A DNA stretch of 64,000 bases, taken from IMG/VR virus record IMGVR_UViG_3300047545_000306, positions 1-64,000 of that record; one strand, written 5' to 3'. Below the pieces are notes generated by a model. It had not been told where the DNA came from and did no database searches. It saw only the letters and a list, made by a program, of their open reading frames with translations. Positions 5,104-46,170 of the stretch are shown piece after piece (within the stretch, counting starts at the first letter, position 1; each line of letters starts with the position of its first letter). The position numbers and the translations under genes were made by a program. Source of the DNA: a virus. Taxonomy: Duplodnaviria; Caudoviricetes.

Positions 5104-5886
5104 ATGAAAAAAGTAATAGTAACATCATTCGATGAAAAGTATATGGACTACTCTCGTGTAGCAATAAAGTCTATAGGTATCAATTACCATAGTGATGAGG
5201 TGCTGGATGTTGTCTGTCTTGTACCCGAAAATCTCCTTGACAGCGTGGATGCATACCGATCATCCGTGTCTCAGCCCAACCTCAACATTCGGTTTAAGAC
5301 CGCTAATAAGTTTATTAAGCTTGTAGAGGATGGCATGGGGTATGCTGTTAGACACCTCAGTGTCAGTTCATTCCACAGAATCTTTGTTGGATCTGCCCTG
5401 GAGGATTACGATATGGCTATCTATATAGACCCAGACACAATCGCCCTGCGTGACATAGAGCCAATGCTAAGCTATAAGAGTCGTAGCCCTTTCCTGGCTG
5501 TAGTTGAGACTGTCAACATGGGGAAAATAGTCTTTGACTCTGACGATATCCCATACTTCAACAATGGTGTGTTCATTGCTGATCTCAATTGGTGGCGTAA
5601 TGATGGCATAGAGGACAGACTTCTAGACTGGATTAGCACCACTGGCTACTCTGAGCTTGCTGAGCAGGATGCTATGAATGCAGTCCTAAGAGACTACCTA
5701 GCCCCACTACCATTCTCATTTAACTTCTTTGAGTGGATTATAGACAACAACAAGCTTATGGCAGAAGAACACAGCAACCCAATGATTGTTCATTTTGTTG
5801 GTGATCAGAAGCCTTGGGGTCCAATAGCTATGTCCAAGTATGCACTCCTATGGAGAAACCTATACTCGGAAATAACAAATGCGTAA
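5104..5886 (+). CDS. glycosyltransferase family 8
   Basis: YIDPD (DxD), YFNNGV, AEQDAMN, HFVG..KPW motifs. Confidence 0.9.
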   Translation: MKKVIVTSFDEKYMDYSRVAIKSIGINYHSDEVLDVVCLVPENLLDSVDAYRSSVSQPNLNIRFKTANKFIKLVEDGMGYAVRHLSVSSFHRIFVGSALEDYDMAIYIDPDTIALRDIEPMLSYKSRSPFLAVVETVNMGKIVFDSDDIPYFNNGVFIADLNWWRNDGIEDRLLDWISTTGYSELAEQDAMNAVLRDYLAPLPFSFNFFEWIIDNNKLMAEEHSNPMIVHFVGDQKPWGPIAMSKYALLWRNLYSEITNA

Positions 5887-6694
5887 AGTAATAGTCACAT
5901 CGTTTGATCAGAACTATATTGATTACTCTCGTGTTATGCTTCACACTCTTAGCATAAACTATCATGAGCAGACTCCTCTAGATGTGATTTGCCTGGTGCC
6001 TGCAAACATTCTGCACATGCAAGATTATTACACCAAGTCTTTGGGGTTGGATAATCTAAATATATCTTTTGTAACATCTGAAAAGTATCTGTCTATGGTG
6101 GAGGATGGCATTGACACCAGCCACAAGGATGCCGCAAGTAATTGTAACCATAGGATGTTTATTGGGTCAGCCTGTGCTGATTATGATGTTGCTATATACA
6201 TAGATCCAGACACTATAATAATGAGAGAAGTTTCTCCCCTACTTACATACCCCCTCAGAAATGATTTCATGGCTATGGTGGAGATGACAGACGCTAACGT
6301 GGTTAGTTTTAATGATCCAGATAGACCATACTTCAGTAACGGAATATTTATGGCAGACCTAAACTTCTGGAGAGAAGAAGGAATAGAGGAAAAGCTTATT
6401 GATTTAATAAAGAATGGCGGTCCACTCTTCCTTGCAGAGCAAGATGCAATGAACTCTATACTTATAGACTACTGGTCACCATTGCCAATGAGCTTCAACA
6501 TGTTTGACTGGATGGTGTACGCAAACCCACACATTGCAGAAGCCAACAGCAACCCACTAATAGTTCACTTTGTTGGCGTAGAGAAGCCCTGGAAGTCTAG
6601 GACCATAACTCCATACAGTAACTACTGGAGAAAGGTCTACTCAGATCTTTCTTCTTGGGATAGCCAAATATCAAACATGAACTCTGCCCAGTAG
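5879..6694 (+). CDS. glycosyltransferase family 8 (tandem paralog)
   Basis: YIDPD, YFSNGI, AEQDAMN, HFVGVEKPW. Confidence 0.9.
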   Translation: MRKVIVTSFDQNYIDYSRVMLHTLSINYHEQTPLDVICLVPANILHMQDYYTKSLGLDNLNISFVTSEKYLSMVEDGIDTSHKDAASNCNHRMFIGSACADYDVAIYIDPDTIIMREVSPLLTYPLRNDFMAMVEMTDANVVSFNDPDRPYFSNGIFMADLNFWREEGIEEKLIDLIKNGGPLFLAEQDAMNSILIDYWSPLPMSFNMFDWMVYANPHIAEANSNPLIVHFVGVEKPWKSRTITPYSNYWRKVYSDLSSWDSQISNMNSAQ

Positions 6695-7452
6695 TCGTGG
6701 AATGATGTTCCTGGGTGTGCACCCTTGTCTGCTGCAATAAGTGAATAGGTCTTGTCTGCACCCTTCTTAGCGGAGTCAAACTCAAACACTCTTTTTATAA
6801 GCGTTGCCTTGTCTACCTCGTAGTAACTGTGGAATGACTTAAGCAGTGGTGTTGGTGACCCACCAAGCTGGTGAGCCCAGTGTGGTCGCTCTACCGTACT
6901 ATTAGGATAGAATAGCTTCTTATCCTTTCCAGGAAGAATGTGGTCACCATTGCCATTAATGTCTTCTGCCCAAGTTGAGGTGATAAGCTTAATTCCCCTA
7001 CCCTTGCAGTACGTGTCTAGGTGCAAATAGAATGAATAAACATATGAGTCTAAGGCTTCTTTCCTATCCGCCACATACTTCATATCTCTACCGTGGTCTG
7101 GCAAGAAAAGGAATATGGCTTCTGGATCTCCAAACTCCCTGATGTACATAAAGATGTGATGAATCGATTCGCCAATAGACCAGCCAATTCTTCCAACATT
7201 GTAGAATCCATCTACAGGGTATTTCTCTGCTATCTTCTTATACGTCTTGTAAGACCAAGAGTCTTCCATTTCCAAGCCTTCGCCCCACGTGAAGGAGCAT
7301 CCAGCAAAAAGAATGTGCTTTCCATTTGGATGGCTTTGTCTGAAGTCATCAGTTCTAAACACTCTGCCAGCATTGGGATTTGCTTCAAGCCTATCTACAT
7401 AAGCCTGTGTTATTAGTGGTGCTTTTCCGTACCAAGTTTCATTCTTCGTCAT
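6637..7452 (-). CDS. SGNH/GDSL-like hydrolase or acyltransferase
   Basis: ILFAGCSFTWGEG (block I-like) and D..AHPG C-terminal motif; paralog at 26305. Confidence 0.6.
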   Translation of the reverse strand: MTKNETWYGKAPLITQAYVDRLEANPNAGRVFRTDDFRQSHPNGKHILFAGCSFTWGEGLEMEDSWSYKTYKKIAEKYPVDGFYNVGRIGWSIGESIHHIFMYIREFGDPEAIFLFLPDHGRDMKYVADRKEALDSYVYSFYLHLDTYCKGRGIKLITSTWAEDINGNGDHILPGKDKKLFYPNSTVERPHWAHQLGGSPTPLLKSFHSYYEVDKATLIKRVFEFDSAKKGADKTYSLIAADKGAHPGTSFHDYWAEFMFDIWLSQEERSE

Positions 7453-7636
7453 AGACTACCTCATTCTTTGGGAATGCCTCGTGGCATCCGTAGCAATAGT
7501 GTGTTGGTTGATCTGGACCAAAGTCCATGCCACCAAGGGCTACACCCTCTTGTCTTGCTAGATCAATTAGTTTGGCTGTTGGGAAGCCGTATATTACGTT
7601 TACCATCTCATGGTTACATTCAGGACAATTATTCAT
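7439..7636 (-). CDS. zinc-ribbon protein (leaderless)
   Basis: CPEC..IYGFP..LGG..CYGC. Confidence 0.65.
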   Translation of the reverse strand: MNNCPECNHEMVNVIYGFPTAKLIDLARQEGVALGGMDFGPDQPTHYCYGCHEAFPKNEVVYDEE

Positions 7637-7671
7637 AATTAAAGTATATCATAGGCTGGTATAATTGATGG

Positions 7672-7881
7672 ATGGATCAAGAAGAAATCCTGCAATATTC
7701 CGCCAAAATAATTGAACAAATTGGACCCCTAGGCGAAGACATCTTTAGTCTTGGAATCCACTATGAGCGAATCCACCTATTCTCAAAGCTACGAGATGCC
7801 ATCCAAGAAAAGGATTCTACTAGCGATGCGATTGCTGTAGAGGTGCTATCTTGGATCTGGGATCGCCTAGCCTCTGACTAG
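7672..7881 (+). CDS. hypothetical protein (leaderless, plus strand)
   Basis: TGGTATAAT-6 nt-ATG; fills the gap between minus-strand genes. Confidence 0.55.
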   Translation: MDQEEILQYSAKIIEQIGPLGEDIFSLGIHYERIHLFSKLRDAIQEKDSTSDAIAVEVLSWIWDRLASD

Positions 7882-8501
7882 TATGGAAACTTTACCTCTA
7901 GGGCTTTGTCTGTTGTAAACCAGCATGGTAGGCAATATCTATCTGAGCCTATCTTGTTAACCTCGTGGTCGTAAATAATTCCATCGTATGCTGGAAAGGT
8001 TATGAACTGATTCTTCAATGGCTTGACAGAGTATTGTAGGTTTGGAAATCCCAGGTCTCCACCGTCTTCTACAGTGTTTAGGTAGAGTATGCCACTATAC
8101 TTAAACTGTGGATTAACGTCTACAGCACCGTCCAGGTGCCTTAGAACTTTGGCTCCAGCACCCTGCTTACCCATGTGAAATGATGTCAAGTAGATCTCTT
8201 CGTCACCGTAAAGCTCCTTGACCTTCGCAACCATGATATCTCTATACTTGTTGACAATATCTTTTATGTCTGCGATCAGGGACATGTCTGGCTTAGAGTC
8301 TTCCCAGACCTCATCGTATCCGAAACGTAAGATGTGTCTGTTTGGTATCTCTCTGGAGGCATCAGTAACAAACTTATCTAGGTTATTGTCTATGTAGTCC
8401 ATGAAGAGCTGTGAGTCTTCATCCGTGATTAGATTATCAGTTACCTTGATCTTCGCTATTGATAGTGGTGCCCACTTCATTCGTTCTGCATGCATATCCA
8501 T
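7878..8501 (-). CDS. 2OG-Fe(II) oxygenase, prolyl-4-hydroxylase-like
   Basis: HLD..YSGILYLN..GGDL.F..HEV..G.RY; start moved to 8501 (TATAAT-6-ATG) because the longer ORF overlaps a tRNA. Confidence 0.85.
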   Translation of the reverse strand: MDMHAERMKWAPLSIAKIKVTDNLITDEDSQLFMDYIDNNLDKFVTDASREIPNRHILRFGYDEVWEDSKPDMSLIADIKDIVNKYRDIMVAKVKELYGDEEIYLTSFHMGKQGAGAKVLRHLDGAVDVNPQFKYSGILYLNTVEDGGDLGFPNLQYSVKPLKNQFITFPAYDGIIYDHEVNKIGSDRYCLPCWFTTDKALEVKFPY

Positions 8502-8526
8502 ATAGTTATTATACCTTATCTCGTTG

Positions 8527-8599
8527 TCCCCCCAGCTGGGATCGAACCAGCGACGCACGGATTAGAAGTCCGACGCTCTATCCACTGAGCTATGGGGGG
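8527..8599 (-). tRNA. tRNA-Arg(TCT)
   Basis: Cloverleaf, anticodon loop CTTCTAA, T-loop GTTCGAT. Confidence 0.92.
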
Positions 8600-8608
8600 G
8601 TGATGCCC

Positions 8609-8998: not shown

Positions 8999-9033
8999 GT
9001 ATTAAGTATATCAGAATCATTGTATTTGTCAAG

Positions 9034-9114
9034 TACTCCTGGTGGGATTCGAACCCACACAACTTTCGTCTCCAGATTTTAAGTCTAGTATGTCTGCCAT
9101 TCCATCACAAGAGC
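9034..9114 (-). tRNA. tRNA-Leu(TAA)
   Basis: Loop CTTAAAA, long variable arm. Confidence 0.92.
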
Positions 9115-9115
9115 G

Positions 9116-9189: not shown

Positions 9190-9190
9190 G

Positions 9191-10304: not shown

Positions 10305-10305
10305 A

Positions 10306-11917: not shown

Positions 11918-12871
11918 TTATGAGTGATGCTTGGAGAGGTTCTCCATATAAGTATAACAAAAATCTTGCCACTCGTCAAGCAAACCTATCGATTTATAAA
12001 AATCTTCTATGGATCTTTCTGGATTGACGACCGAGAACTTCCCAGTGTTATTTATAAATAGTTTATCAATCTCTGCTATGGTCTCTTTGTCGTCCGACTT
12101 GTAGGTAAACTTTGATCTGTATGTTGGATATGGTTCACCAAATACTGCCATTCGATACTCCTGGTCCATGTGACCAACATGGTTTCTAAAGTTCATTGCA
12201 TATATGTCCCAGCCACTCAGGAATGCCCTTATCGACATCGACTGTTCTTCTGATCTAATGCTAGCTGCATTGATGATGCCAACCTCTTTTACATACCTAC
12301 CCTGCGTAAAAAAGAAATGTGAGGATGAGTAGTTAGTTAAAAAGAAATCTTCTGTGGTCTCTACACTCTGTTCCATTCTTCCAACTAGATTCCCACTGAT
12401 GTATCCTATGGCTGTACGATCTGCTTCTAGGAATTTCCACAGTGTCTTTTCATTTGGACTGTATGGCATGTTGCCATGTACCCCTGGAATCTGCTTAGAC
12501 AGAATAACCTTGTCCTGCTTTAATGATTGCAGCCTGGCGTAGTCATTAATAATTAGCTCATCCCAGTTCTTCATAAATGTCATGTGAGAATCTATCATCA
12601 TGAAGTAGTCTTCATTGTCATAGAACTTTAAAAGCTCATGTCTAACTAAATTAATGCTTGGTCTAGTGTCAACATCATACGAAATCAAATTGGAGGTATA
12701 CTGAGATACGTCTGGAATTGGTTTTGCCTTGTACTGGAGGGCTATGGCGAACCTGATACGCTCTGGATGCCTAGCGTTAGATATTGCTGACTGAAGTGTT
12801 GGAACTAAAAGCAGATCTTCGTATGCTGGAATGGTTATAAATATAGTTGGGTGCCCCATAAGGCTATCCAC
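11918..12871 (-). CDS. GT60-like (Skp1/Gnt1-type, GlcNAc domain) glycosyltransferase
   Basis: TIFITIPAYED..A.HPERIRFAI..YFMMIDSHMTF.KNWD..EEQSMSIRAF..GWDIY. Confidence 0.75.
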   Translation of the reverse strand: MDSLMGHPTIFITIPAYEDLLLVPTLQSAISNARHPERIRFAIALQYKAKPIPDVSQYTSNLISYDVDTRPSINLVRHELLKFYDNEDYFMMIDSHMTFMKNWDELIINDYARLQSLKQDKVILSKQIPGVHGNMPYSPNEKTLWKFLEADRTAIGYISGNLVGRMEQSVETTEDFFLTNYSSSHFFFTQGRYVKEVGIINAASIRSEEQSMSIRAFLSGWDIYAMNFRNHVGHMDQEYRMAVFGEPYPTYRSKFTYKSDDKETIAEIDKLFINNTGKFSVVNPERSIEDFYKSIGLLDEWQDFCYTYMENLSKHHS

Positions 12872-13447
12872 CTATACTATCTTTGAAGACTTTGTGTAGT
12901 CTTTGCCGAAGTCAGAGAATAGGCTCTTGTCTGTCTCACGATTTACAATGCCTCGTGACCAAGAGAACCCTGCGTCTCCACCCCATGCAAGCCACATGAT
13001 GTAGCCATTAGATGGGTTAGCCTGGTTAGCCCAATCCTTACCCTTCTTATCTACTTCGTGGCGTGAGAAGTATGAGTACATACGCTTAACAGTACTAAGA
13101 GAGATAGACTCTCCTCTTGCTAGTTGCCCTGCACGAGTCCAGCCTACAGATGTTCCAGCTCCATTAGCCTTGCCATCTTCCTTAAACTTAATAGCCTTAC
13201 GTGCTGCTGCACGTGCACCTGCTGGAGGAGAGTACCCATCAGCCTTTTCAATAGAGTCAGTATCATAGACTACATCATCAGAGTCTTCGAAGAGGTCGTC
13301 TGCCTTCTCAACTGGCACACAGTTTGGAACCATGTTACCATTGTCTCCTGGCTTCATCCCTCTTTGGGTGTAGCCGTCCCAGCATGCTTTTGTTGTTGTC
13401 ATGCATTTTTCGCATTCACATGCTGGATTATTCTCGTCGTGCTCCAT
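12872..13447 (-). CDS. conserved phage protein (CWDGY..VPNCVP motif plus TVKRMYSYFSRH..LAWGG domain)
   Basis: Motifs recurrent in phage proteins; function unclear. Confidence 0.7.
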   Translation of the reverse strand: MEHDENNPACECEKCMTTTKACWDGYTQRGMKPGDNGNMVPNCVPVEKADDLFEDSDDVVYDTDSIEKADGYSPPAGARAAARKAIKFKEDGKANGAGTSVGWTRAGQLARGESISLSTVKRMYSYFSRHEVDKKGKDWANQANPSNGYIMWLAWGGDAGFSWSRGIVNRETDKSLFSDFGKDYTKSSKIV

Positions 13448-17345: not shown

Positions 17346-17674
17346 CTGTCTCTCCTTACCGATATCTTGTCATTAGTAAAATTGGGAAGCTTTACACAAA
17401 CTACCTCGCAGTCTTCGTGAAAGACTGGGTCAGCTATCTCCATTGGTTCTAATATAAACACATCTCCAGGGCATATATCTACCCCCTGAATCGTCATGGA
17501 GCCACGTACGAGAAGGTTTATCTCGTCTAAGTGCTCATGATAGTGCCAATCCCATACTTCCCCAGCCTTGTGGATTTTGAAAGATACTTCTGCACCCTTT
17601 GTTTGATAAGCAGCATTTGGAAAGTTTCCAACATACCAACCACCTATAGAATCGTCTAGCTTCTTTAGTATCAT
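17342..17674 (-). CDS. cupin-domain protein
   Basis: GWYVGNF.P..HYH...DEINLLVRG. Confidence 0.75.
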   Translation of the reverse strand: MILKKLDDSIGGWYVGNFPNAAYQTKGAEVSFKIHKAGEVWDWHYHEHLDEINLLVRGSMTIQGVDICPGDVFILEPMEIADPVFHEDCEVVCVKLPNFTNDKISVRRDR

Positions 17675-18888
17675 AGATCAATGCTCCCCAAAACTTTATC
17701 AACAGCTTTTATAATTGTATCAGAGTAAAAGGTTTTTGCATAGTTTTCTGGCTCTCTTTTGTCAAAAAATATATTTGCATTTGGTTTAATTACTTCTAGG
17801 ATGTCCTCGTGCGGAAAACCGTATGACATTCTTGGTGCAATGTAGATGAACGTGCAGCTATCCTGAACGAATAGGGATTGTAGCTCTGATGCCCCTGCCC
17901 ATACAGCCACGACAGCTGCCTCTGACATGATATCCATCTGCTCCCTAAGACTCATGCCATCGATTGTCAGTATCTCAAATCCTTTAGACTTAAAAAAACC
18001 TTCTATCGCTTCTTCTTCGGAAGACGAAAAGTATCTAAGGTACACGTCCTTGACCCCAGAATTAAATTCTGCTGGATGAAAGGCTGATAGATCTACTCCA
18101 TCTATCCTGCCAGTATTTTCTGCAGTTCTCCAGTCTTTCGACCAAATGACCCCATTTGACTCTAAAAATTTGTACAAAAGATTTGCTTTGTCAAAGAATT
18201 CTCTTTTATGCTTTACGCTAACAAATATTTTTCTATGTGGTTTTTTCTTTTTTCTAATTCCTGCAAAGAAGTTTTTCATTGCTAGAGTTACTGCAAACTT
18301 ATAAGAGTAGGATGCATCATTATCTCCATCTAAAAGACCGCCTGTTAGAAGCCTGTCTACTGCAGAGAATATTTCTGTCTTTATTCCATCTCCCCATAAG
18401 CTTATGGCATATAGATTTTCAACCACCAGGTTTCCGTCACTGGGGAAAAACAAGAAATTCTCATAATCAAAATCAATGGTGTCTAGTAGCTCTGTCACCA
18501 GCTTTGGGTTCCTTGAGTGGTACTTGCAGAATTCTGCAAAGATTAACCTTGGGTGTGTCAGCTCTCCAGTATACATTATCACTGGCTTAAGGTCTGGGAC
18601 TGATTCTTTGATCAACAGGTACTCACCAATGATGTCGTGCATCAGGTGAAAGAACGGTCTCTGCCACTCTATGATATATGCGTTGCCAGACACCTTAACT
18701 ATTGGCTTATGTGGATCATTAATAATGCTTATTCCAGAAGCCTTGTAAAAAAATAGGTCCTCTCCGCCATCCCGATAAGACAACAACCCCCACTCTTCGG
18801 ATCTTTTGAAGTGGTCTGTTTTTATTGGCTCTGCTTTTGTAAATGATATCTTGGATACATCTAAGTGGTAGTTAGTGTCATAGCCCAT
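17671..18888 (-). CDS. glycosyltransferase family 61-like
   Basis: FFHLMHD..RKIFVS..EE...FF...GF..MSLREQ..GA. Confidence 0.7.
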   Translation of the reverse strand: MGYDTNYHLDVSKISFTKAEPIKTDHFKRSEEWGLLSYRDGGEDLFFYKASGISIINDPHKPIVKVSGNAYIIEWQRPFFHLMHDIIGEYLLIKESVPDLKPVIMYTGELTHPRLIFAEFCKYHSRNPKLVTELLDTIDFDYENFLFFPSDGNLVVENLYAISLWGDGIKTEIFSAVDRLLTGGLLDGDNDASYSYKFAVTLAMKNFFAGIRKKKKPHRKIFVSVKHKREFFDKANLLYKFLESNGVIWSKDWRTAENTGRIDGVDLSAFHPAEFNSGVKDVYLRYFSSSEEEAIEGFFKSKGFEILTIDGMSLREQMDIMSEAAVVAVWAGASELQSLFVQDSCTFIYIAPRMSYGFPHEDILEVIKPNANIFFDKREPENYAKTFYSDTIIKAVDKVLGSIDL

Positions 18889-19981
18889 AGGTTCCCCACG
18901 AAACTGATGAAAATCCAGAATCTGTTATGACATTAATTCCAACAGCCCTGTCTCTGTCTGCATCCTGCAACTTATCATTAACCAAGAATCTTTCACCCTT
19001 TGACACATCCATGACCATATAGTCCCAGTGGAGCCCCAACTCTCTAAGCTGCGACTCTACTACTGCCCTATTCACTTCTCTTCTTGCCGTGGTTATAACT
19101 ATTTTGTGACCAGACACGATCCACTCATTGATCTTGTCTAGTACTCCTGGCAGAAGCGTTGGCTTAGAGTCTTCATGGTTTGGGAAATGATGTGCGTGTT
19201 GTAGGATTGTTCCATCCAAATCTAAGAATATTGTCTTTGGCTTTTCTGCATAATACTCATCTATCTTAGATTGATATATCTCTAGATCCCTTGGAGTTCC
19301 AAGAGGAATGTATTGGTTGGCAGGAATGCTGTGAGATATGATCTTCTTGCCATCATTTATTAAATAGTTATATGTCAGAGAGACGTATGACTCCCTGCCG
19401 TCCTTGATGCAATCTGCAACCAAGCTTTCTGCAGACTTAACAAAATCTTTTCCTTGCTTCCAGTAATGGAGTCCAACCAGAGCATTGTCACTAATGGGAT
19501 TCTTTTCAGCTAGGTGTGTGACAAGCCCATTCTGAACTACTGCATAGCTGTGCTTGTGGCTTGATGATGGGTGTACCAAGATGCTGCCATCTATACCATG
19601 AGATCTAGACATTCTTAAAAAGTCTTCTGGGTCCCACTCAAGCCTCTGGTCACAATTGGTAAGGATAAGTTCATCATCATTGTTTATGTAGTCTTTGGCA
19701 ATTAGTGCAGAGAACGATGTTCCAAATTGCTTACCCTTGGCACGTAGCTCAACGTGTCCAGGTGCTACGCTGTGAAGTATCTCTGTCAGCTTCTTGTTAT
19801 GATCTGGATCATCATATTCTCTTGTAATAAAAATGAACCTACCCTGAATCCCTAGGGTCTCTACTGAGTGCTGAATTAGTGTTTTGCCATCTATTTCAAT
19901 TAGTGGCTTTGGAACCTCAAACCCTGCGTCACTAAATCTTGATCCTAGACCTGCCATAGGAATTATTATATTAACTGTCAT
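18878..19981 (-). CDS. sugar nucleotidyltransferase fused to a C-terminal HAD-like domain
   Basis: IIPMAGLGSRF...PKPLI, NCDQ, EK, LGTP.D; then DLDGT..TTAR..NDK. Confidence 0.85.
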   Translation of the reverse strand: MTVNIIIPMAGLGSRFSDAGFEVPKPLIEIDGKTLIQHSVETLGIQGRFIFITREYDDPDHNKKLTEILHSVAPGHVELRAKGKQFGTSFSALIAKDYINNDDELILTNCDQRLEWDPEDFLRMSRSHGIDGSILVHPSSSHKHSYAVVQNGLVTHLAEKNPISDNALVGLHYWKQGKDFVKSAESLVADCIKDGRESYVSLTYNYLINDGKKIISHSIPANQYIPLGTPRDLEIYQSKIDEYYAEKPKTIFLDLDGTILQHAHHFPNHEDSKPTLLPGVLDKINEWIVSGHKIVITTARREVNRAVVESQLRELGLHWDYMVMDVSKGERFLVNDKLQDADRDRAVGINVITDSGFSSVSWGTYGL

Positions 19982-29435: not shown

Positions 29436-30057
29436 AAAAATCCCTTACTTTCTTTTCTATATCTTTATTAGACTTTATTATTATATCAAACATTGGTGTA
29501 CCAACCTTGATAATGCCAAGGTTATTTTCCTTCATATGCTTACCAGTCTTACTAAAGCTGAACGGTATCATGATTGGCTCAATGGCTCCTATGTCTGGCT
29601 TTATCTTAATAAAATTAGTCATTGAGTTTCTTATTACAAAAGGTGATTCTGGTACATTCCTGAACTCTACGTCAGCATCTAGGTCTATTATCCATGGTAC
29701 GTATGCCCTGTATACCCCAGGAAAGCAGTTCTGAGAGTGTGGTGGCAACTTTGACTGATAGTACTGTCTAACCCAAGGTCTGTCTACGTTATAGAAGATA
29801 CCATCTTCATTAACCAGCAAATAGATTTCTGCATGGTTTGACTGTCTCAACACTATGCGATTGGAGTCTGCAGATATAAGCTCTGGCACTGGATATAGCA
29901 TTTCAGCATACCTGTTAATTGGTTTTATTATGGAGTCTTTATACTTGTTGCTTATGCCGTCAAAGGACATCCACTTTTTGGGAACTCTGGATTCCCAGCT
30001 AATTTTTAGAAATGGCTCATCAAATGATTCATACCATACGTTATGGTTTACACTCAT
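29392..30057 (-). CDS. distant paralog of the two downstream proteins
   Basis: PW..SPF..IIKVGTPMFDI. Confidence 0.5.
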   Translation of the reverse strand: MSVNHNVWYESFDEPFLKISWESRVPKKWMSFDGISNKYKDSIIKPINRYAEMLYPVPELISADSNRIVLRQSNHAEIYLLVNEDGIFYNVDRPWVRQYYQSKLPPHSQNCFPGVYRAYVPWIIDLDADVEFRNVPESPFVIRNSMTNFIKIKPDIGAIEPIMIPFSFSKTGKHMKENNLGIIKVGTPMFDIIIKSNKDIEKKVRDFYASYQVSPIHRRNV

Positions 30058-32820: not shown

Positions 32821-34869
32821 TTATTCTTTTCTCCTTGTTGATCCTGATCCACCTGAAGATCCTCCAGATGCCCCACCTCCAGATGAACCTGTAGATGTGG
32901 ATGCCGCTGCTGTTGCTGAGGCAACTGCATTTACAGCTGCTCCAGTAGCAATAACGGATGCGATAACTGTCTTCTCTGCTTCCTCACGGACTGCAGGTGC
33001 CATGTCAGCACCGACGTTACCAATATTATTAAACACTTCAAGTGCTGCTCCTGCAACATCTCCAAGTAGTGGAATTGCTGCAAGCTCTGCTGATAGCTCT
33101 GCATCGTCTGCCTCTGCTGCTACTGCAAGTGCCTCTAGGGCTTGTTCGTAGGCTGGGGATCCCTGCTCTGCAGTTTCAAATACAACTAGGGCAGCTTCTA
33201 CAAGCTGTTCTACCTGGGCATCTGTTAAATCTTCTGGTGCAGTCTCTACTAGATTTGCAATCTCTCCTACTGCAGCCTCTTCTGTTACAGGTAGCTCAGG
33301 TTCTGGTTGTACTTCTGGGGTTGCTGACGGCTCTGGCTCTGGTAGCGGCTCCACGACATCCTCTGTTGGCTCTGGAGTAGGTTCCGAGCTCTCCGCAGGT
33401 GCAGGTGCTGGCTCTTCAACAGGTGGCGTGGTTGGTTCGGGATCCACTGTTGGTTCTGGTGTTGGTGCAACTGGCTCCTCTGTTGGTGTAGGTGTTGGTA
33501 CTATTATAACTGGCGTTTCAGTTGGTGTCGGAGAGGGCTGTGGCTCTGGAGAAGGAAGAGGAATTGGCTGTGGCTGCGGTTGAGGTTCAATTGCTGGTGG
33601 AGTTACTACTGGTGGAACCACCACCTGTAATGGCACTATTGACCAAGTAAATCTAGTAACCTTTACTACTCCTCCACAAGGGTCACCAAAGGTGCCGTTG
33701 TCTAATGCTACAGTTATGGTTGTCTGACCGATCATCATACCGCCAAGAACTGAAGAAACGTCTGCTCCACATGTAGTGTCATCTGGTGAGCCGTACCATG
33801 CACGTACAGAGTAGAACTCCCATCCTGCAGGTGCTGTGATGGTTACAGTTTCGCCTTCCCAGTTTTGCTGAGCCCACCATGGCTGCTCTACAACCGTTGT
33901 CGGTGTTGGAGTTGGTGTAGGCTCTGGTGTTGGAGTTAGTGCTAGAATGGCAGCCTCTAGCCCAGGGATTGCAGCTAGAGCTGTGCTCAAACGTGCCTGG
34001 GCTGCCTGATTAGCATTTAATGCTGAGCTGTAGGCAAGCTGTGCAGTTGCCAAGGCTGTCTGGGCTGATACAACTGCTGCAGACTCTGTCTCGCCATAGG
34101 TAGTTGTTTCTGGTATGGTGGTTGTAACGCTAGCAACAAGACTAACATTGTCAATGCTTCCAGCGAAGTTGCCGTTCCAATAACCGTTGTCCACTAGTCG
34201 GAATCCGATGTCCCATCTAACCGCATCGTCAGACAGGCTGTAGGTTGCTGCAAAGTGTGTCCAAGGGAATATGTCAGCACGATCTCCAGTATTGTAGTAG
34301 TTTAGTCTCTGTCCTGCTGCGTTGTATGTGCGAAACTCTACACGATATCCATCAGCCTGTGGGCGATTGCCATCGTTAAAGTTGTTGTTTGACATATCGT
34401 ATGAGAATGTAACTTGTCTAACTGGTGATGGAAATGTTCCAGTTTGAGATATAAAGTTGTATATGTAAGACCCAACCAAGACACCGTCATATACACGAGC
34501 TATGTTAGAGTTGATTACAGTTTCTGGATACCCCATGGCAATGTTTGACCAGTTAGATGCTGTGTCGAATGTTCCATTTATCACCTGTTGCTGTGCTACT
34601 GATGTAGTAACGGATGGCGTTACTACTGCTGTTGCCAACTTGGCAACTAGTGCAGAATCGTAGGCTGCCTGAGCGTCTAAAACATCCTGACTAGCAGAAG
34701 CCAGTCTGGCTGCTGTGTCGATTGCGTCTTGGCTAGCAGCAGCGACCTCCTGCTGTCCAGCAACTAGGGCTGACTGAGCCTCATCTAAGGTTTGAGCATG
34801 AGCTGGGGTAGCAAAAAACAATGGCAGGAATGCCATCGATAGTGCTGCTAAGAATCTTGGGGTTTTAAT
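32821..34869 (-). CDS. secreted protein with carbohydrate-binding-like and SUEL/Gal-lectin domains and a long Pro/Thr/Glu linker
   Basis: Signal peptide (AHA); NGTF beta-sandwich; A.YG..C..N..FGDPC.GV.K lectin motif; PTPEPTP repeats; probable ATT start at 34869 (ATG alternative at 34836). Confidence 0.75.
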   Translation of the reverse strand: MKTPRFLAALSMAFLPLFFATPAHAQTLDEAQSALVAGQQEVAAASQDAIDTAARLASASQDVLDAQAAYDSALVAKLATAVVTPSVTTSVAQQQVINGTFDTASNWSNIAMGYPETVINSNIARVYDGVLVGSYIYNFISQTGTFPSPVRQVTFSYDMSNNNFNDGNRPQADGYRVEFRTYNAAGQRLNYYNTGDRADIFPWTHFAATYSLSDDAVRWDIGFRLVDNGYWNGNFAGSIDNVSLVASVTTTIPETTTYGETESAAVVSAQTALATAQLAYSSALNANQAAQARLSTALAAIPGLEAAILALTPTPEPTPTPTPTTVVEQPWWAQQNWEGETVTITAPAGWEFYSVRAWYGSPDDTTCGADVSSVLGGMMIGQTTITVALDNGTFGDPCGGVVKVTRFTWSIVPLQVVVPPVVTPPAIEPQPQPQPIPLPSPEPQPSPTPTETPVIIVPTPTPTEEPVAPTPEPTVDPEPTTPPVEEPAPAPAESSEPTPEPTEDVVEPLPEPEPSATPEVQPEPELPVTEEAAVGEIANLVETAPEDLTDAQVEQLVEAALVVFETAEQGSPAYEQALEALAVAAEADDAELSAELAAIPLLGDVAGAALEVFNNIGNVGADMAPAVREEAEKTVIASVIATGAAVNAVASATAAASTSTGSSGGGASGGSSGGSGSTRRKE

Positions 34870-34978
34870 TCTGTCTCCTTGTTAGTGGGGTATGTCTAAC
34901 AAGACTATTATACCATTATTTCGGTAAAGCAAAAGAGGACCAGAACTTAATCCGATCCCCCTTAGCGATATACAAGAA

Positions 34979-41275: not shown

Positions 41276-41795
41276 CGTGGACAATTGTAATTACCTCTCG
41301 CTCTTTTGCTACGTCAGATAGCCTACGCATAATCTTGTCACGGATCTCTGGGTGCTCTGTTGCGATATCTTTAAGAATGTTAACAAGGATTTCTTGCTTA
41401 CGCTCAATCTCTAACATCTCTTCTGCAAGTTCCTTGTTCTCAAGAAGTCCTGCCTTCTGTAGCATGTCGATACGAGTCTTCTCAAGGTCCATAACAAGCT
41501 TAATACCTGCAGTCTTAGCATTTAGGTTTGCTACAGTTGTTGCCTCATCGATTACTTCGTATGCCTTTGAGATTAGCTTGCTATAGTGTGTGTCTGCACC
41601 TACCAGGGCTTCCTTGGCACGAGCACGAATAGCTGCATTGTCTGCAGCCATCGTTCTCCACTCATCGATGTAAGCAACGACCTTTTGGCGAGGCAGCTGC
41701 AACTCTTTCGAAATCTGTGTAGGCTCTGCACCTGCTAGATACTTCTCAACAACCTTGTTTACTTGATCAAGGTGCTCTATTAGATTATCTTCCAT
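41265..41795 (-). CDS. putative terminase small subunit (HTH plus coiled coil)
   Basis: N-terminal HTH-like region, directly upstream of terL. Confidence 0.55.
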   Translation of the reverse strand: MEDNLIEHLDQVNKVVEKYLAGAEPTQISKELQLPRQKVVAYIDEWRTMAADNAAIRARAKEALVGADTHYSKLISKAYEVIDEATTVANLNAKTAGIKLVMDLEKTRIDMLQKAGLLENKELAEEMLEIERKQEILVNILKDIATEHPEIRDKIMRRLSDVAKEREVITIVHDVQ

Positions 41796-42543
41796 ATTTA
41801 AAAGCCGTCTTCATTCTGTCATCTATCTTCTTCAGGGCTACTGGATCGTTTTTCTGCTCCTCGGTTGGTGCAAACAGTGCTCTGTATGTCTTGTCCTTGT
41901 CGCTCTCATCTGGCTTGGTGTAGTAGAATAGGGCAATGCTCTTTCTCTGTTCGCCATCTGGTGCATGGATTGCATCATTGTTTGGTAGTCCATGCCAAGA
42001 GTTTTGGGTTGTGTCAAAGATGAAGGCTGTGTTAAACATCGGAGAAACTTCCTTAACCTTTTCTAGTGGCTGACCGTCTTCTGGATTGTTTGACCATAGT
42101 TCTAGTGCACCACCCCACTCCTCTTTCCAATTACTGTTTAGATAAACAATTATGTTTAGCTTACGCTTGAGGTTTAGCTTTGGGTGCATCTCTGCATCCC
42201 TGTGTAGGTTAAGTCTTCCATTGCTTGGGTGAATGTGCATGCCGCCTGCATGTAGACCGAAGTCAGCGTATAGATCTTCTTCAATTCCAGTAAGCTTCTT
42301 TAGCTCCGCAATGAACTCGTTTGAGCATAGGTAGTAGAATGCACGATAGAAGCTGCCTGGATACCAATCCCAGTGGGTGGCAAGACGCTTCTGCTCAAAC
42401 TCAGTGTGATTTCTGGTTAGCCAACGCTCGTCATCATACTCGTAAAAGTCTGTCTCTAGCTCCTTAGCTGTTTCATCGCTAAAAAAGTTTGGGATGACCC
42501 AGTGATCAAATGGGTTGTTACTGTGCTGAGCTTTTTCTAACAT
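41785..42543 (-). CDS. 2OG-Fe(II) oxygenase
   Basis: LHAGGMH..LNLHRD..LNIIVYLN..W..EWGG.LELW..SWHG..RKSIA. Confidence 0.9.
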   Translation of the reverse strand: MLEKAQHSNNPFDHWVIPNFFSDETAKELETDFYEYDDERWLTRNHTEFEQKRLATHWDWYPGSFYRAFYYLCSNEFIAELKKLTGIEEDLYADFGLHAGGMHIHPSNGRLNLHRDAEMHPKLNLKRKLNIIVYLNSNWKEEWGGALELWSNNPEDGQPLEKVKEVSPMFNTAFIFDTTQNSWHGLPNNDAIHAPDGEQRKSIALFYYTKPDESDKDKTYRALFAPTEEQKNDPVALKKIDDRMKTAFKYGR

Positions 42544-44815: not shown

Positions 44816-44854
44816 TTTTTATTAAACTCTTTTCTTTGTTATGTCTATTGTACA

Positions 44855-45160
44855 CTATCGTGTAATATATTTCAACGCAGAAACGAGGCTATTGATTGAC
44901 TCTGCAGCAGTATAGTAAATGTTCTTCTTTGCTCTATCACTTTTATCGACATTAGTTAGCCATGTTGCTTTAAAAGCCATCTTTGCTGCAATCGCCTGTA
45001 GTCTTACAATCTCTACAGTAGCAACGTTAAGTGGCACGTCTGGCTTAATGATTAGCTTAGCGATAAACGTAAGTGCAGTTGTGAGCTCTTCGTCATCCAT
45101 GTAGTCAGCGATCTCTGTGAGACCATTGACCATCTCAAGTGTTGTTTGTTCCATTCTCAT
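44855..45160 (-). CDS. hypothetical protein
   Basis: ORF in the replication block. Confidence 0.65.
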   Translation of the reverse strand: MRMEQTTLEMVNGLTEIADYMDDEELTTALTFIAKLIIKPDVPLNVATVEIVRLQAIAAKMAFKATWLTNVDKSDRAKKNIYYTAAESINSLVSALKYITR

Positions 45161-45168
45161 TACCCTAT

Positions 45169-46170
45169 CTATTTAAGATACTTTTTATTTTTAGGATCTT
45201 TGATTTCTTGATCATACTTTATATTTTGACTTGGATCATTGGCACGTTCAAACAAGAAATCTATTGGTGGCACATTATCGTGCTTTGTGTTTATCGGAGA
45301 GTCCGTTGGGTTGCCAGCTTCGTCAATAATGATTCCATACTGGTCTAGTGGTATTCCGTCTGCCAAGCCATCTAGCTGATACTTCTGGAATGATCTAGCG
45401 TATGCAAACGTTGACTGAAACTCCGTTCCATGCTGTCTACGCTTCATTGCCCTGGAGAATGGGTGTATAGGATCTAGCTTTCCAGTGAATACCCAGTCAT
45501 CTGCTGGCGAGTAGTTTAGAGATATAATCTTTACGAACTCCCCCTCTTTCCACTTACGCTTTGGTCTCCAGTGTACATGGTTCACAGCACTAAAGACTAT
45601 AGCATCCCCTGGACGAAGCTTGTAGTTCTCTTCATCTACACAGACTTCCCAGTCTATGTTTCCGTCTAGCATGTAGTTAAAAGTTATAAGTGCGTTGCTG
45701 GCATCGATATGTGGCTGTAGTGCTGGTACGTACTCCCCATTTCCATACTCAAGATTGTAGTCTAGGTAGTTGTAGTGAGAAAGCTTTATTTCGTGCTTAT
45801 ACATTGGCTTAATAATAGCGTCTATCTTTGCCTCAATTTCTTTAGGCATGATGAAATCAATGACCTGTCTTGATAGCTCTATCATCTGTCTTGGCACTCT
45901 AACGTCATTGTCAACGATCTCTTTGTGCCCTGGGACCACCTTGCTAGAGGTTCTCTGCAAAGACTTGTGCCAGTCCAGAATTCCATTTAACTTAGTAACG
46001 TCCCATGGAGCCAATGGCTTTTCCAAATATACTGGTGGAACAGCATTGTACTCGTCAAAGTTGGTTAGCCACTCATGCATTGGTGCATAAGCCTCTTCTG
46101 GGTAAATGTCGTATTGCTTGATTAGCTCTTGGTCTAGATCACTGTCTAGTTCATTATTTTTTTCATTCAT
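45169..46170 (-). CDS. 2OG-Fe(II) oxygenase (leaderless insertion)
   Basis: LQPHID..TFNY..DW..HWRP; TATAAT-6-ATG. Confidence 0.75.
   Translation of the reverse strand: MNEKNNELDSDLDQELIKQYDIYPEEAYAPMHEWLTNFDEYNAVPPVYLEKPLAPWDVTKLNGILDWHKSLQRTSSKVVPGHKEIVDNDVRVPRQMIELSRQVIDFIMPKEIEAKIDAIIKPMYKHEIKLSHYNYLDYNLEYGNGEYVPALQPHIDASNALITFNYMLDGNIDWEVCVDEENYKLRPGDAIVFSAVNHVHWRPKRKWKEGEFVKIISLNYSPADDWVFTGKLDPIHPFSRAMKRRQHGTEFQSTFAYARSFQKYQLDGLADGIPLDQYGIIIDEAGNPTDSPINTKHDNVPPIDFLFERANDPSQNIKYDQEIKDPKNKKYLK

What the first reader, a model, noticed from the sequence alone, without database searches (positions are those of the whole stretch)
5104..46170. Candidate phage-encoded proline hydroxylation plus O-glycosylation system (Skp1-pathway-like)
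Seen: three 2OG-Fe(II) oxygenases (7878, P4H-like; 41785; 45169), a GT60/Gnt1-like transferase with the DSH motif (11918), a second related GT-A (27111), two GT8 and two GT61 genes, plus a secreted protein with long PTPEPTP/PQPQP tracts (32821). Established: in protists, Skp1 is modified by a prolyl hydroxylase, then GT60 Gnt1 on hydroxyproline, then further GTs including a GT8; GT61 includes protein O-GlcNAc transferases; some actinophages glycosylate their virions. Inference: this phage may hydroxylate and build a multi-sugar glycan on virion or exported proteins, possibly O2/iron-dependently. The genes are dispersed, so the linkage is hypothetical, and DNA base modification is an alternative role for the oxygenases.
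Basis: partly seen in the sequence, partly recalled or inferred. Interest (0 to 1): 0.8.

Follow-up and report, generated by a model that had tools for sequence, protein, structure and literature searches.

The report
Phage protein hydroxylation and glycosylation toolkit
An uncultured phage of actinobacteria carries, scattered over about 40 kb, proline-hydroxylase-type oxygenases and many sugar transferases that related phages keep side by side or fused, so it probably sugar-coats Pro/Thr-rich phage proteins, which nobody has tested in any phage.

Summary
Observation confirmed. The window holds two GT8 genes, a GT60/PF11397 transferase with the DSH motif, a divergent GT60 paralogue, two GT61-like genes, three 2OG oxygenases and an exported Pro-rich protein.

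Interpretation partly supported.
- The GT60-like model (pLDDT 92) matches only polypeptide GalNAc-transferases.
- Two oxygenases belong to the prolyl-hydroxylase family.
- In related WhiB-bearing phage contigs the dispersed genes form one cassette.
- The GT60 paralogue is followed directly by a P4H-like oxygenase in 14 of 14 loci.
- Canonical GT60 and P4H-like genes abut in four other contexts.
- One 817-aa protein fuses both.
- Some relatives add HPAT, O-FucT and PLOD-type transferase domains.

Weak points.
- In this phage the oxygenases are not beside the transferases; its cassette has lost the oxygenase pair.
- Canonical GT60 does not co-occur with P4H-like genes more than expected (p = 0.40).
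- The substrate and the linking residue (hydroxyproline or threonine) are unknown.
- Skp1 is absent.
- The GT8s are LgtC-like.
- DNA modification is not excluded.

The scan has noted this theme before in at least 29 other genomes. I found no paper on it.

The parts
5104..5886 (+). GT8 glycosyltransferase a
   Evidence: Pfam PF01501 95.2 bits. Nearest solved relatives are LgtC, WbbM and GlyE. Homologues lie inside the cassette in L011 and L012.
5879..6694 (+). GT8 glycosyltransferase b, tandem paralogue of a
   Evidence: PF01501 92.9 bits. Paralogue of GT8a at E 5e-90. A homologue opens the cassette in L012.
6637..7452 (-). Unknown protein, paralogue of 26305-27114; an SGNH-like GxS motif (GCSFTWGEG) seen by eye only
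   Evidence: No Pfam or PHROG hit. Paralogy at E 1e-34. Homologues sit between the oxygenase pair and the carbamoyltransferase in L010, L013, L014 and L167.
7878..8480 (-). P4H-like 2OG-Fe(II) oxygenase; the ORF runs to 8558 but overlaps tRNA-Arg
   Evidence: PF13640 33.6 bits. HxD...H...R conserved: H141, D143, H198, R207. The family profile hits P3H1 at 1e-15 and P4H at 5e-13 in PDB. Orthologues lie near ThyX in L008, L017 and L090.
11918..12871 (-). GT60-type (PF11397) GT-A glycosyltransferase; probable start at ATG 12859
   Evidence: PF11397 93.4 bits. D94, H96 and H234 are invariant in 27 homologues. Model pLDDT 92. All listed Foldseek PDB matches down to rank 47 are polypeptide GalNAc-transferases. 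No transmembrane segment.
12872..13447 (-). Cys-rich protein abutting the GT60 gene; part of the system only tentatively
   Evidence: phrog_2859, unknown function. Found in 27 of 80 GT60 loci, but also common in loci without GT60.
17671..18888 (-). GT61-like glycosyltransferase a
   Evidence: PF04577 26.5 bits, just under the cut-off. Paralogue of 19989-21197.
18878..19981 (-). Nucleotidyltransferase plus HAD phosphatase (sugar activation)
   Evidence: Weak NTP_transf_3, IspD and HAD hits. Travels with the GT61 genes in L017, L105 and L160.
19989..21197 (-). GT61-like glycosyltransferase b
   Evidence: PF04577 36.9 bits.
21197..22459 (-). NDP-sugar C-methyltransferase
   Evidence: Methyltransf_14 94.4 bits and Methyltransf_13 47.2 bits.
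22381..23385 (-). NDP-sugar epimerase/4,6-dehydratase
   Evidence: Epimerase 146 bits and GDP_Man_Dehyd 143 bits.
24832..26244 (-). NodU/CmcH/TobZ-type O-carbamoyltransferase
   Evidence: Carbam_trans_C 179.7 bits and Carbam_trans_N 153.6 bits. It is the commonest family within two genes of GT60-like genes (6 of 136 neighbours). It is paired with the GT60-like gene in Xanthomonas phages XacN1 and Xoo-sp13.
26305..27114 (-). Unknown protein, paralogue of 6637-7452. It occupies the slot where relatives have the two P4H-like oxygenases
27111..27980 (-). Divergent GT60-family GT-A, with DxH replaced by S-x-D/E
   Evidence: PF00535 35.7 bits. hhalign to the GT60 alignment: probability 98%, E 1e-13. 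In 14/14 other loci a P4H-like gene follows within 0-32 bp.
27967..29435 (-). Two DUF6065 paralogues (27967-28719 and 28716-29435), core of the cassette, function unknown
   Evidence: phrog_7084. Atlas clusters carry DUF6065 on 12-23% of members. No PDB relative by sequence. Always upstream of the GT in the cassette.
29392..30057 (-). First gene of the conserved cassette, function unknown
   Evidence: No family hit. Conserved position in L010, L012-L015, L022, L105, L116, L127 and L160.
32821..34878 (-). Exported Pro/Thr-rich carbohydrate-binding protein, a candidate substrate only
   Evidence: PTPEPTPTPTPT at residues 301-312 and about 110 Pro-rich residues at 405-517. The signal peptide MKTPRF...AHA|Q requires an ATT start after AGGAGA. 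Rhamnose-binding-lectin hit 5h4s, E 8e-6, residues 347-394. Orthologues lie upstream of the cassette in L012 and L022.
41785..42543 (-). Prolyl-hydroxylase-family 2OG oxygenase among the replication genes
   Evidence: PF13640 58.5 bits and PF13661 47.8 bits. Best solved relative is DdPhyA 6T8M, E 3.5e-6 over 61 residues, then OGFOD1. Not linked to GT genes in the relatives seen.
45169..46188 (-). 2OG-oxygenase-fold protein of its own family
   Evidence: Model pLDDT 80 with a double-stranded beta-helix fold (HygX, PHD2). H160, D162, H206 and R208 conserved. A homologue lies between two GT60-like genes in L016 and between the two oxygenases in L160.

Best explanation
The window holds a dispersed copy of a protein hydroxylation and O-glycosylation toolkit that is widespread in uncultured phages. 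All the enzymes are soluble, so they would act in the infected cell's cytoplasm. Proposed order of events follows. (1) Prolyl-hydroxylase-type Fe(II)/2OG oxygenases hydroxylate residues, most likely Pro, in Pro/Thr-rich linkers or collagen-like repeats of phage-encoded proteins. (2) The GT60-type transferase, a polypeptide-GalNAc-transferase-like GT-A with DxH...H, adds the first sugar to the polypeptide, on hydroxyproline or on Thr/Ser. (3) The GT8, GT61-like and GT60-related transferases extend the glycan, using among others a C-methyl-branched deoxysugar made by the phage's own nucleotidyltransferase, dehydratase and C-methyltransferase. (4) The carbamoyltransferase, and possibly the two paralogous unknowns, decorate sugar hydroxyls. 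Shown here: the family and fold assignments, the catalytic motifs, and the linkage or fusion of these families in related sequences. Inferred: the acceptor is a protein; the oxygenase and transferase share a substrate; the order of steps; which protein is modified. Candidates are the collagen-like and other fibre proteins of the virion, or the exported Pro-rich lectin-like protein.
For: GT60 membership and fold. Oxygenases in the prolyl-hydroxylase family: A2 profile versus PDB gives P3H1 1e-15, P4H (3itq/5hv0) 5e-13, PPHD 5e-8, PHD2 about 1e-7 and vCPH 5e-5; 41785 is nearest DdPhyA. Linkage: the dispersed genes are contiguous in L010, L012-L015, L022, L105, L116, L127, L160 and L167. GT60-related GT directly followed by a P4H-like gene in 14/14 loci. 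In 42 control loci anchored on a neutral neighbouring gene, any GT60-family GT versus P4H-like gives 9/5/6/22, OR 6.6, p = 0.009. Canonical pairs abut in L009 (6 bp, divergent), L074 and L076 (1-3 bp), L097 (overlapping) and L105. Fusion P0188 = PF13640 + PF05050 + PF11397. L074 has P4H-like, then an HPAT + O-FucT + GT60 fusion, DUF5672, a carbamoyltransferase, GT60 and GT_PLOD; the characterised members of HPAT, GT60 and PLOD-GT, and of part of O-FucT, act on proteins, and HPAT and PLOD-GT act on hydroxylated residues. No enzyme has a transmembrane segment. The genome offers candidate substrates: two Pfam Collagen tail-fibre-region proteins with Pro in the Y position and the Pro/Thr-rich exported protein. 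(PT)n proteins occur in 18/80 GT60 loci versus 3/78 control loci (confounded by lineage).
Against: In this genome no oxygenase abuts a transferase, and the cassette here has lost the oxygenase pair. Canonical GT60 versus P4H-like co-occurrence in the control set is not significant (4/5/11/22, p = 0.40). Within-locus proximity is weak (p = 0.03 for three genes or fewer, p = 0.27 for adjacency). P4H-like genes are simply very common in this phage group (15 of 42 windows). The 14/14 adjacency is one inherited cassette, not 14 independent events. The GT60-related paralogue lacks the DxH...H ligands. The Pro-rich protein is Sec-exported, which fits poorly with cytoplasmic glycosylation. The capsid and tail-tube proteins have no Ser/Thr-rich C-terminal extension. 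No chemistry has been measured.
Confidence: 0.5

Rival explanations
1. Mucin-type Ser/Thr O-glycosylation of virion or exported proteins without any hydroxyproline. The GT60-type enzyme glycosylates Thr in Pro/Thr linkers, as Dictyostelium and Trypanosoma GT60 enzymes do and as mycobacteriophage transferases do on capsid and tail-tube proteins. The oxygenases do something separate, for example stabilising collagen-like tail fibres or hydroxylating other targets.
For: The fold is that of polypeptide GalNAc-transferases, which use Ser/Thr. Canonical GT60 is not significantly associated with P4H-like genes. L090 keeps the P4H orthologue, but the 15-kb stretch held has no GT60 gene. Earlier scan note e1-5744141 reports a lineage where GT60 tracks with poly-Thr linkers rather than the hydroxylase (not checked here). 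(PT)n proteins are enriched near GT60. Collagen-like fibre proteins are present. Virion O-glycosylation in mycobacteriophages is published (Freeman et al. 2023, PMID 37329881, cited in PMC12582341; the paper itself is not held).
Against: Repeated direct adjacency and one fusion of P4H-like with GT60 domains. HPAT and PLOD-type GT domains in the same clusters point to hydroxylated acceptors.
Confidence: 0.2
2. DNA hypermodification, analogous to base J or to 5-carbamoyloxymethylcytosine. Oxygenases hydroxylate a base, GT-A enzymes glycosylate it and the carbamoyltransferase caps it, protecting phage DNA from host nucleases.
For: A phage carbamoyltransferase of this family was shown to carbamoylate 5hmC in DNA (PMC8670742). 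In Xanthomonas phages XacN1 and Xoo-sp13 the GT60-like plus carbamoyltransferase pair lies near the DNA polymerase, RNase H and NUDIX genes. ThyX lies next to the P4H-like and GT60 genes in L097 and near them in the window, L008 and L017. DUF6065 homologues in haloarchaeal viruses sit beside thymidylate synthase and DNA polymerase. The A2 profile also hits Naegleria Tet at 6e-7, and one cassette oxygenase has a sub-threshold Tet_JBP hit.
Against: No ThyA-like hydroxymethylase, no Tet_JBP and no C5 DNA methylase in the 103-kb record, which is 88% complete. The oxygenase profile scores prolyl hydroxylases eight to nine orders of magnitude better than Tet. The GT60, HPAT and PLOD-GT families, and part of O-FucT, have protein acceptors in every characterised member. 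In the MetaGPA study, carbamoyltransferases flanked by glycosyltransferases were on unmodified contigs.
Confidence: 0.12
3. Synthesis or remodelling of a non-protein glycan: host cell-envelope polysaccharide or teichoic acid for superinfection exclusion or lysis control, or a small glycosylated metabolite. The oxygenases would act on sugars.
For: The cassette lies next to the M23/PG-binding endolysin and to genes for exported proteins. The GT8s resemble LPS and O-antigen enzymes LgtC and WbbM. 45169 is structurally nearest HygX, an oxygenase acting on an aminoglycoside. The C-methyltransferase, dehydratase and carbamoyltransferase resemble antibiotic deoxysugar pathways.
Against: There is no membrane-bound transferase, flippase, polymerase or polyprenyl-phosphate glycosyltransferase among the genes examined, and all enzymes are soluble. 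The GT60 fold and family point to polypeptide acceptors.
Confidence: 0.1

Closest known systems
Skp1 hydroxyproline glycosylation pathway of Dictyostelium and Toxoplasma (PhyA prolyl 4-hydroxylase, Gnt1 GT60, PgtA, Glt1/Gat1)
   Same: A cytoplasmic prolyl-hydroxylase-family 2OG oxygenase together with a soluble PF11397/GT60 transferase carrying a DxH motif, plus GT8 enzymes. One window oxygenase has DdPhyA (6T8M) as its nearest solved relative.
   Different: No Skp1. The GT8s are nearest LgtC, WbbM and GlyE. The genes are not adjacent in this genome. There are many more transferases, an unusual-sugar pathway and a carbamoyltransferase. The acceptor is unknown.
Plant and green-algal hydroxyproline-rich glycoprotein pathway (P4H, then HPAT GT95 and other Hyp glycosyltransferases)
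   Same: Relatives of the window's GT60 gene are fused to HPAT and O-FucT domains and follow a P4H-like gene, with an (APTPTPTP)n protein two genes upstream (L074). Pro/Thr dipeptide repeats resemble arabinogalactan-protein motifs.
   Different: The window itself has no HPAT or O-FucT domain among the genes scanned. The enzymes are cytoplasmic rather than in the ER or Golgi. Nothing has been tested.
Mycobacteriophage virion O-glycosylation (Che8, Corndog and others; Freeman et al. 2023, PMID 37329881)
   Same: An actinophage encoding several soluble glycosyltransferases and sugar-modifying enzymes, with a polypeptide-GalNAc-transferase-like initiating enzyme.
   Different: The capsid and tail-tube proteins here have no Ser/Thr-rich C-terminal extension. 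Here prolyl-hydroxylase-like oxygenases and a carbamoyltransferase travel with the transferases. Details of the published system are recalled from memory, because the paper is not held.
Giant-virus protein hydroxylation: PBCV-1 prolyl 4-hydroxylase (vCPH, 5C5T) and mimivirus L230 (lysyl hydroxylase plus glucosyltransferase on viral collagen)
   Same: Virus-encoded 2OG hydroxylases acting on the virus's own Pro-rich or collagen-like proteins, and a PLOD-type GT domain in relatives (L074, P0182). The genome encodes two collagen-repeat proteins.
   Different: This is a bacterial virus. No lysyl hydroxylase domain was identified. No hydroxylase-collagen adjacency is seen here.
5-hydroxymethylcytosine carbamoyltransferase and base-J-type DNA hypermodification
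   Same: Same carbamoyltransferase family, and an oxygenase plus GT-A logic.
   Different: No dCMP hydroxymethylase, Tet/JBP or C5 methylase. The oxygenases are of prolyl-hydroxylase type.

Membership tests
CAZy GT60 / Pfam PF11397 (GlcNAc) | Sequence match above the curated Pfam threshold | tested here: met
   93.4 bits against a cut-off of 21, E 2.6e-26, in two stretches covering profile positions 1-53 and 116-262.
CAZy GT60 / Pfam PF11397 (GlcNAc) | GT-A fold with a DxH metal motif and a downstream His, related to GT27 polypeptide GalNAc-transferases | tested here: met
   D94, H96 and H234 invariant in 27 sequences. Model pLDDT 92. All listed Foldseek matches down to rank 47 are ppGalNAc-T chains, E down to 4e-11.
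CAZy GT60 / Pfam PF11397 (GlcNAc) | Transfers alpha-GlcNAc from UDP-GlcNAc to a polypeptide hydroxyl (Hyp in Gnt1, Thr/Ser in pp-alpha-GlcNAcT) | not testable with these tools
   Needs an enzyme assay.
Skp1 modification pathway (PhyA-Gnt1-PgtA-Glt1/Gat1) | Skp1 substrate present | tested here: not met
   No PF01466 match in the 103-kb record, but the control genomes did not ring either, so the search is weak. Skp1 is a eukaryotic SCF subunit (established knowledge).
Skp1 modification pathway (PhyA-Gnt1-PgtA-Glt1/Gat1) | PhyA-type cytoplasmic prolyl 4-hydroxylase | tested here: inconclusive
   41785-42543 is nearest DdPhyA 6T8M, but only at E 3.5e-6 over 61 residues. 7878 is nearest Bacillus-type P4H at E 0.009 alone. 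The family profile is nearest P3H1 and P4H.
Skp1 modification pathway (PhyA-Gnt1-PgtA-Glt1/Gat1) | Glycogenin-like GT8 (Gat1) as the terminal transferase | tested here: not met
   The nearest solved GT8s are LgtC, WbbM, 3tzt and GlyE; no glycogenin or Gat1 hit at E <= 0.001.
Prolyl 4-hydroxylase family (Pfam PF13640, P4Hc) | Match above threshold and an HxD...H...R/K 2OG-Fe(II) triad | tested here: met
   33.6 and 58.5 bits against a cut-off of 27. H141 and D143 invariant, H198 and R207 nearly invariant, with a YLN motif.
Prolyl 4-hydroxylase family (Pfam PF13640, P4Hc) | Hydroxylates peptidyl proline | not testable with these tools
   Needs a peptide assay or proteomics.
TET/JBP DNA-base dioxygenases (PF12851) | Match to Tet_JBP above threshold | tested here: not met
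   No match in the genome, though the control genomes did not ring either. One cassette oxygenase in L013 scores 21.6 bits against a cut-off of 34.9.
Mycobacteriophage-type virion glycosylation | Ser/Thr-rich C-terminal extension on the capsid or tail-tube subunit as acceptor | tested here: not met
   The putative capsid protein (genome 77316-78473) and tail-tube protein (73391-74029) end without such a tail. Their identities were inferred from position and size only.
5hmC carbamoyltransferase DNA-modification system | Carbamoyltransferase co-occurring with a ThyA-like dCMP hydroxymethylase | tested here: not met
   No PF00303 in the record; only ThyX. The criterion comes from PMC8670742.

The most novel reading that the evidence does not exclude
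This actinophage and its many uncultured relatives run an O2-, Fe- and 2-oxoglutarate-dependent hydroxyproline glycosylation pathway of the kind known only from eukaryotes. Pro in Pro/Thr linkers or collagen-like fibres would be hydroxylated, a GT60-type enzyme would start the glycan on Hyp, and a heteroglycan containing a C-methyl-branched, carbamoylated deoxysugar would be built on it. That would make the phage's fibre or exported proteins a bacterial-virus counterpart of plant hydroxyproline-rich glycoproteins.
Probability: 0.3. Interest if true: 0.85.

Novelty: new variant of a known kind. Interest (0 to 1): 0.6.

Why it matters
Hydroxyproline-linked glycans are regarded as a eukaryotic invention (Skp1 in protists, extensins and arabinogalactan proteins in plants). 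Phage virion glycosylation has only recently been shown, in a few mycobacteriophages.

If these cassettes hydroxylate and glycosylate phage proteins, several things follow:
- They would add a new class of virion or secreted-protein modification in abundant environmental phages.
- They could explain part of the long-unexplained wealth of 2OG-Fe(II) oxygenase genes in aquatic phages.
- They would tie phage particle properties to oxygen, iron and 2-oxoglutarate supply.
- They would provide soluble, compact enzymes for glyco-engineering.

The comparative result here is directly testable. It comprises a conserved cassette of o29392, two DUF6065 genes, a GT60-related GT and two P4H-like genes; natural oxygenase-GT60 fusions; and GT60 plus carbamoyltransferase pairs in cultured Xanthomonas and Stenotrophomonas jumbo phages.

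Tried and rejected
All context therefore comes from IMG/VR loci of +/-10 kb, which limits the co-occurrence tests.
- A single-protein scan of viral contigs with the GT60 gene found nothing. The alignment A1 was needed.
The narrower A4 gave only 9 loci.
- A scan of bacterial and archaeal genomes with A1 found no relative.
- PDB sequence searches with the GT60, GT60-related and DUF6065 profiles gave nothing.
- DUF6065 is not detectably related to the oxygenases.
- Testing whether the Pro-rich protein travels with the cassette gave an apparent negative association. I reject this as an artefact of geometry: when the cassette is present it pushes the gene beyond the 10-kb flank, as in L012 and L022.
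- The within-locus permutation test for proximity was weak.
- Pfam on Pro/Thr-repeat proteins near other GT60 genes showed no common domain.
- Tet/JBP, ThyA-like, C5-methylase and Skp1 searches of the genome were negative.
- No cultured phage carries the GT60-related GT. The P4H gene has only weak cyanophage matches.
- Literature searches found no paper on phage hydroxyproline glycosylation or phage GT60 function.

Full report
**What the window is.** The 64-kb window is the first part of a 103,150-bp IMG/VR virus record, estimated 88% complete, with about 42% G+C. Nearly all genes lie on the minus strand. It encodes a DnaE polymerase 55% identical to those of Streptomyces BE-cluster phages and a WhiB regulator. 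It also has class Ib ribonucleotide reductase with NrdI, ThyX, RecA, a ferritin-like protein and 15 tRNAs. The rest of the record holds a 2,832-aa tape-measure-sized gene and other structural genes. WhiB marks actinobacteria and their phages (established knowledge), so this is a large siphovirus of an actinobacterium. That the host is a low-G+C aquatic one is inference only.

**Checking the observation.**
- The third 'oxygenase' (45169-46188) gets no valid Pfam hit. With 58 homologues from the representative library it folds at pLDDT 80 into a double-stranded beta-helix. That fold matches 2OG oxygenases such as HygX and PHD2, and the HxD...H...R residues are conserved.
- The 'second GT-A' (27111-27980) is a real but divergent member of the GT60 superfamily. 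hhalign of its family against the GT60 family gives probability 98% and E 1e-13 over 254 columns. However, S-x-D/E replaces DxH and the downstream His is missing.
- The system is larger than described. It also includes a carbamoyltransferase, a sugar C-methyltransferase, an NDP-sugar epimerase/dehydratase, a nucleotidyltransferase-HAD, two DUF6065 paralogues and two paralogous unknowns.
- None of these proteins has a transmembrane-like segment.

**The GT60-like enzyme.** It scores 93 bits on PF11397. In 27 homologues D94, H96 (the DSH motif) and H234 are invariant. The model built on that alignment has pLDDT 92. All listed Foldseek PDB matches down to rank 47 are polypeptide GalNAc-transferases of family GT27. 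GT27 is the family to which GT60 is known to be related. The family is common in uncultured viruses (366 confirmed stretches in IMG/VR) but rare in cultured phages. There it occurs only in the Xanthomonas and Stenotrophomonas jumbo phages XacN1, Xoo-sp13, CM1 and RAS14. In the two annotated Xanthomonas records examined it sits directly beside a carbamoyltransferase.

**The oxygenases.** An alignment of the window's 7878 and 41785 proteins with homologues from related loci keeps H141-x-D143, H198 and R207 and a YLN motif. Its profile finds protein prolyl hydroxylases first in PDB:

| PDB relative | E-value |
|---|---|
| P3H1 | 1e-15 |
| P4H 3itq/5hv0 (Bacillus anthracis, from memory) | 5e-13 |
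| PPHD | 5e-8 |
| PHD2 | about 1e-7 |
| Naegleria Tet | 6e-7 |
| PBCV-1 vCPH | 5e-5 |

These figures are; the PDB identities come from PMC7864055. On its own, 41785 is nearest the Dictyostelium Skp1 hydroxylase DdPhyA (6T8M), but only over 61 residues. These are prolyl-hydroxylase-family enzymes. The substrate cannot be read from sequence.

I fetched 80 viral loci around GT60-like genes and mapped all window proteins onto them.
- In the closest phage group (WhiB-bearing contigs L010, L012-L015, L022) the dispersed genes form one block. Its order is o29392, DUF6065, DUF6065, GT60-related GT, P4H-like, P4H-like, then variably the 6637 homologue or GT8, the carbamoyltransferase and the canonical GT60. 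The M23 endolysin and the sugar genes follow.
- A second, neutral sample of 78 loci anchored on a conserved neighbouring gene (A6) shows the same core in L105, L116, L127, L160 and L167.
- In all 14 loci that have the GT60-related GT, a P4H-like gene follows within 0-32 bp. The window is the only exception: the paralogous unknown 26305-27114 takes that slot.
- Canonical PF11397 genes abut P4H-like genes in four further contexts. These are L009 (6 bp, divergent), L074 and L076 (1-3 bp), L097 (ThyX, then P4H-like, then GT60, overlapping) and L105.
- Among longer proteins, P0188 (817 aa) carries PF13640, an FkbM methyltransferase domain and PF11397 in one chain. Its HxD...H...R residues are visible by eye.
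- In L074 the gene after the P4H-like one encodes HPAT (hydroxyproline O-arabinosyltransferase family), O-FucT and GT60 domains in one 1,039-aa protein. It is followed by DUF5672, a carbamoyltransferase, a second GT60 and a PLOD-type GT. P0182 and P0184 fuse PLOD-GT, O-FucT and GT60.

**Statistical caveats.**
- P4H-like genes are very frequent in this phage group: 15 of 42 control windows of at least 12 kb.
- Canonical GT60 is not associated with them (4/5/11/22, p = 0.40).
- The association appears only when the GT60-related paralogue is counted (9/5/6/22, OR 6.6, p = 0.009; paralogue alone 7/0/8/27, p = 0.0002).
- That signal is largely one inherited cassette.
- A within-locus permutation gives p = 0.03 for three genes or fewer and p = 0.27 for direct adjacency.
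- The case for coupling therefore rests on conserved synteny across 26-37% protein identity, several independent adjacencies and one fusion. It does not rest on co-occurrence statistics.

**Substrate.**
- The Pro-rich protein (32821-34836 as listed) most likely starts at ATT 34878, five bases after AGGAGA. That start gives a classical signal peptide, MKTPRF...AHA|Q.
- By eye it has a carbohydrate-binding-module-like domain. It also has a rhamnose-binding-lectin-like domain (5h4s, E 8e-6), PT/PEPT linkers and a hydrophobic C-terminus ending RRKE.
- Orthologues sit upstream of the cassette in L012 and L022.
- Being Sec-exported, it is an awkward substrate for cytoplasmic enzymes. Gram-positive serine-rich adhesins are a precedent for cytoplasmic glycosylation before export (recalled from memory).
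- The structural region offers alternatives. Two Pfam Collagen proteins have Gly-X-Y runs that include Y-position Pro (genome 99847-100545 and 100563-101489). There is also a Pro-rich stretch near the end of the tape-measure-sized protein.
- Across loci, (PT)n proteins occur in 18/80 GT60 loci versus 3/78 control loci, and collagen-like proteins in 11/80 versus 2/78. The two sets differ in phage lineage, so this is only suggestive.

**Rivals.**
- DNA modification cannot be dismissed. A carbamoyltransferase of this family makes 5-carbamoyloxymethylcytosine (PMC8670742). The Xanthomonas phage pair lies by the DNA polymerase. ThyX is a frequent neighbour. DUF6065 lies by thymidylate synthase and DNA polymerase in haloarchaeal viruses.
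- Against the DNA reading, the record has no ThyA-like hydroxymethylase, Tet/JBP or C5 methylase. The oxygenases are prolyl-hydroxylase-like. The transferase families involved mostly have protein acceptors.
- A purely Ser/Thr-linked glycosylation, and a non-protein glycan, are the other rivals.

**Comparison and novelty.** The logic matches the protist Skp1 pathway and the plant HRGP pathway, but membership of the Skp1 pathway fails. There is no Skp1, the GT8s are LgtC-like and there is no adjacency here. I found no paper describing hydroxyproline glycosylation or GT60 function in phages. Earlier notes of this scan report the same theme in at least 29 other genomes. So this window is a further, dispersed and in part degenerate, example. 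It adds the conserved actinophage cassette with a GT60-related paralogue and DUF6065, and a very elaborate sugar toolkit. I rate it a new variant of a known kind, with interest 0.6.

Noticed in passing
window 34836-34900 (minus strand): The Pro-rich protein probably starts at a rare ATT codon (34878), 5 nt after a perfect AGGAGA. The listed ATG start at 34836 has no ribosome-binding site and would cut off the charged part of the signal peptide.
   Followed up: partly
window 8480-8599: The first 26 codons of ORF 7878-8558 overlap tRNA-Arg (8526-8599). The 'conserved' N-terminus MRRxFDP shared with L008 is probably a translation of the tRNA T-arm (GGTTCGATCC-like) rather than protein. ThyX ORF 10306-11142 similarly overruns tRNA-Gln.
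   Followed up: partly
L135:9550-16028: One related contig carries six P4H-like oxygenase genes, most of them in a row (five on one strand, one opposed), plus two GT60-like ORFs: an oxygenase array.
   Followed up: no
L006 (Xanthomonas phage XacN1) 5992-9709 and L007 (Xoo-sp13) 5995-9690: Cultured jumbo phages carry a 450-aa GT60-like protein directly followed by a 765-aa carbamoyltransferase, close to the DNA polymerase, RNase H and NUDIX genes. This gives an experimentally tractable handle on the GT60-carbamoyltransferase pair.
   Followed up: partly
L176 (halovirus HSTV-2) 5848-6717: DUF6065, a core member of the cassette, has homologues in 46 Halorubrum/Haloarcula-named records (of 56 matching) and a few cyanophages. 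In HSTV-2 the homologue sits next to thymidylate synthase and DNA polymerase.
   Followed up: partly
genome 99847-100545 and 100563-101489 (L004:16847-17545 and 17563-18489, minus strand): Two adjacent collagen-repeat (PF01391) proteins in the tail-fibre region, with GPP, GDP, GKP, GFP, GAP and GEP triplets. They are natural candidates for a prolyl hydroxylase.
   Followed up: partly
window 30842-31636 and 32341-32616 (minus strand): A 264-aa protein with a clear signal peptide and subtilase-like motifs by eye (no Pfam hit), and a 91-aa holin-like membrane protein. They lie between the Pro-rich gene and the cassette, and the M23/PG-binding endolysin (23987-24811) lies just after the cassette.
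   Followed up: no
window 13447-13896 (minus strand): A ferritin-like gene two genes upstream of the GT60 gene. It could serve the iron needs of the oxygenases or of the class Ib ribonucleotide reductase. It is present in 7 of 80 GT60 loci.
   Followed up: no
P0188 (817 aa, metagenomic): A natural fusion of a P4H-type oxygenase domain, a GT60 domain (residues 215-512) and an FkbM-type methyltransferase domain, from an AT-rich unknown organism.
   Followed up: partly
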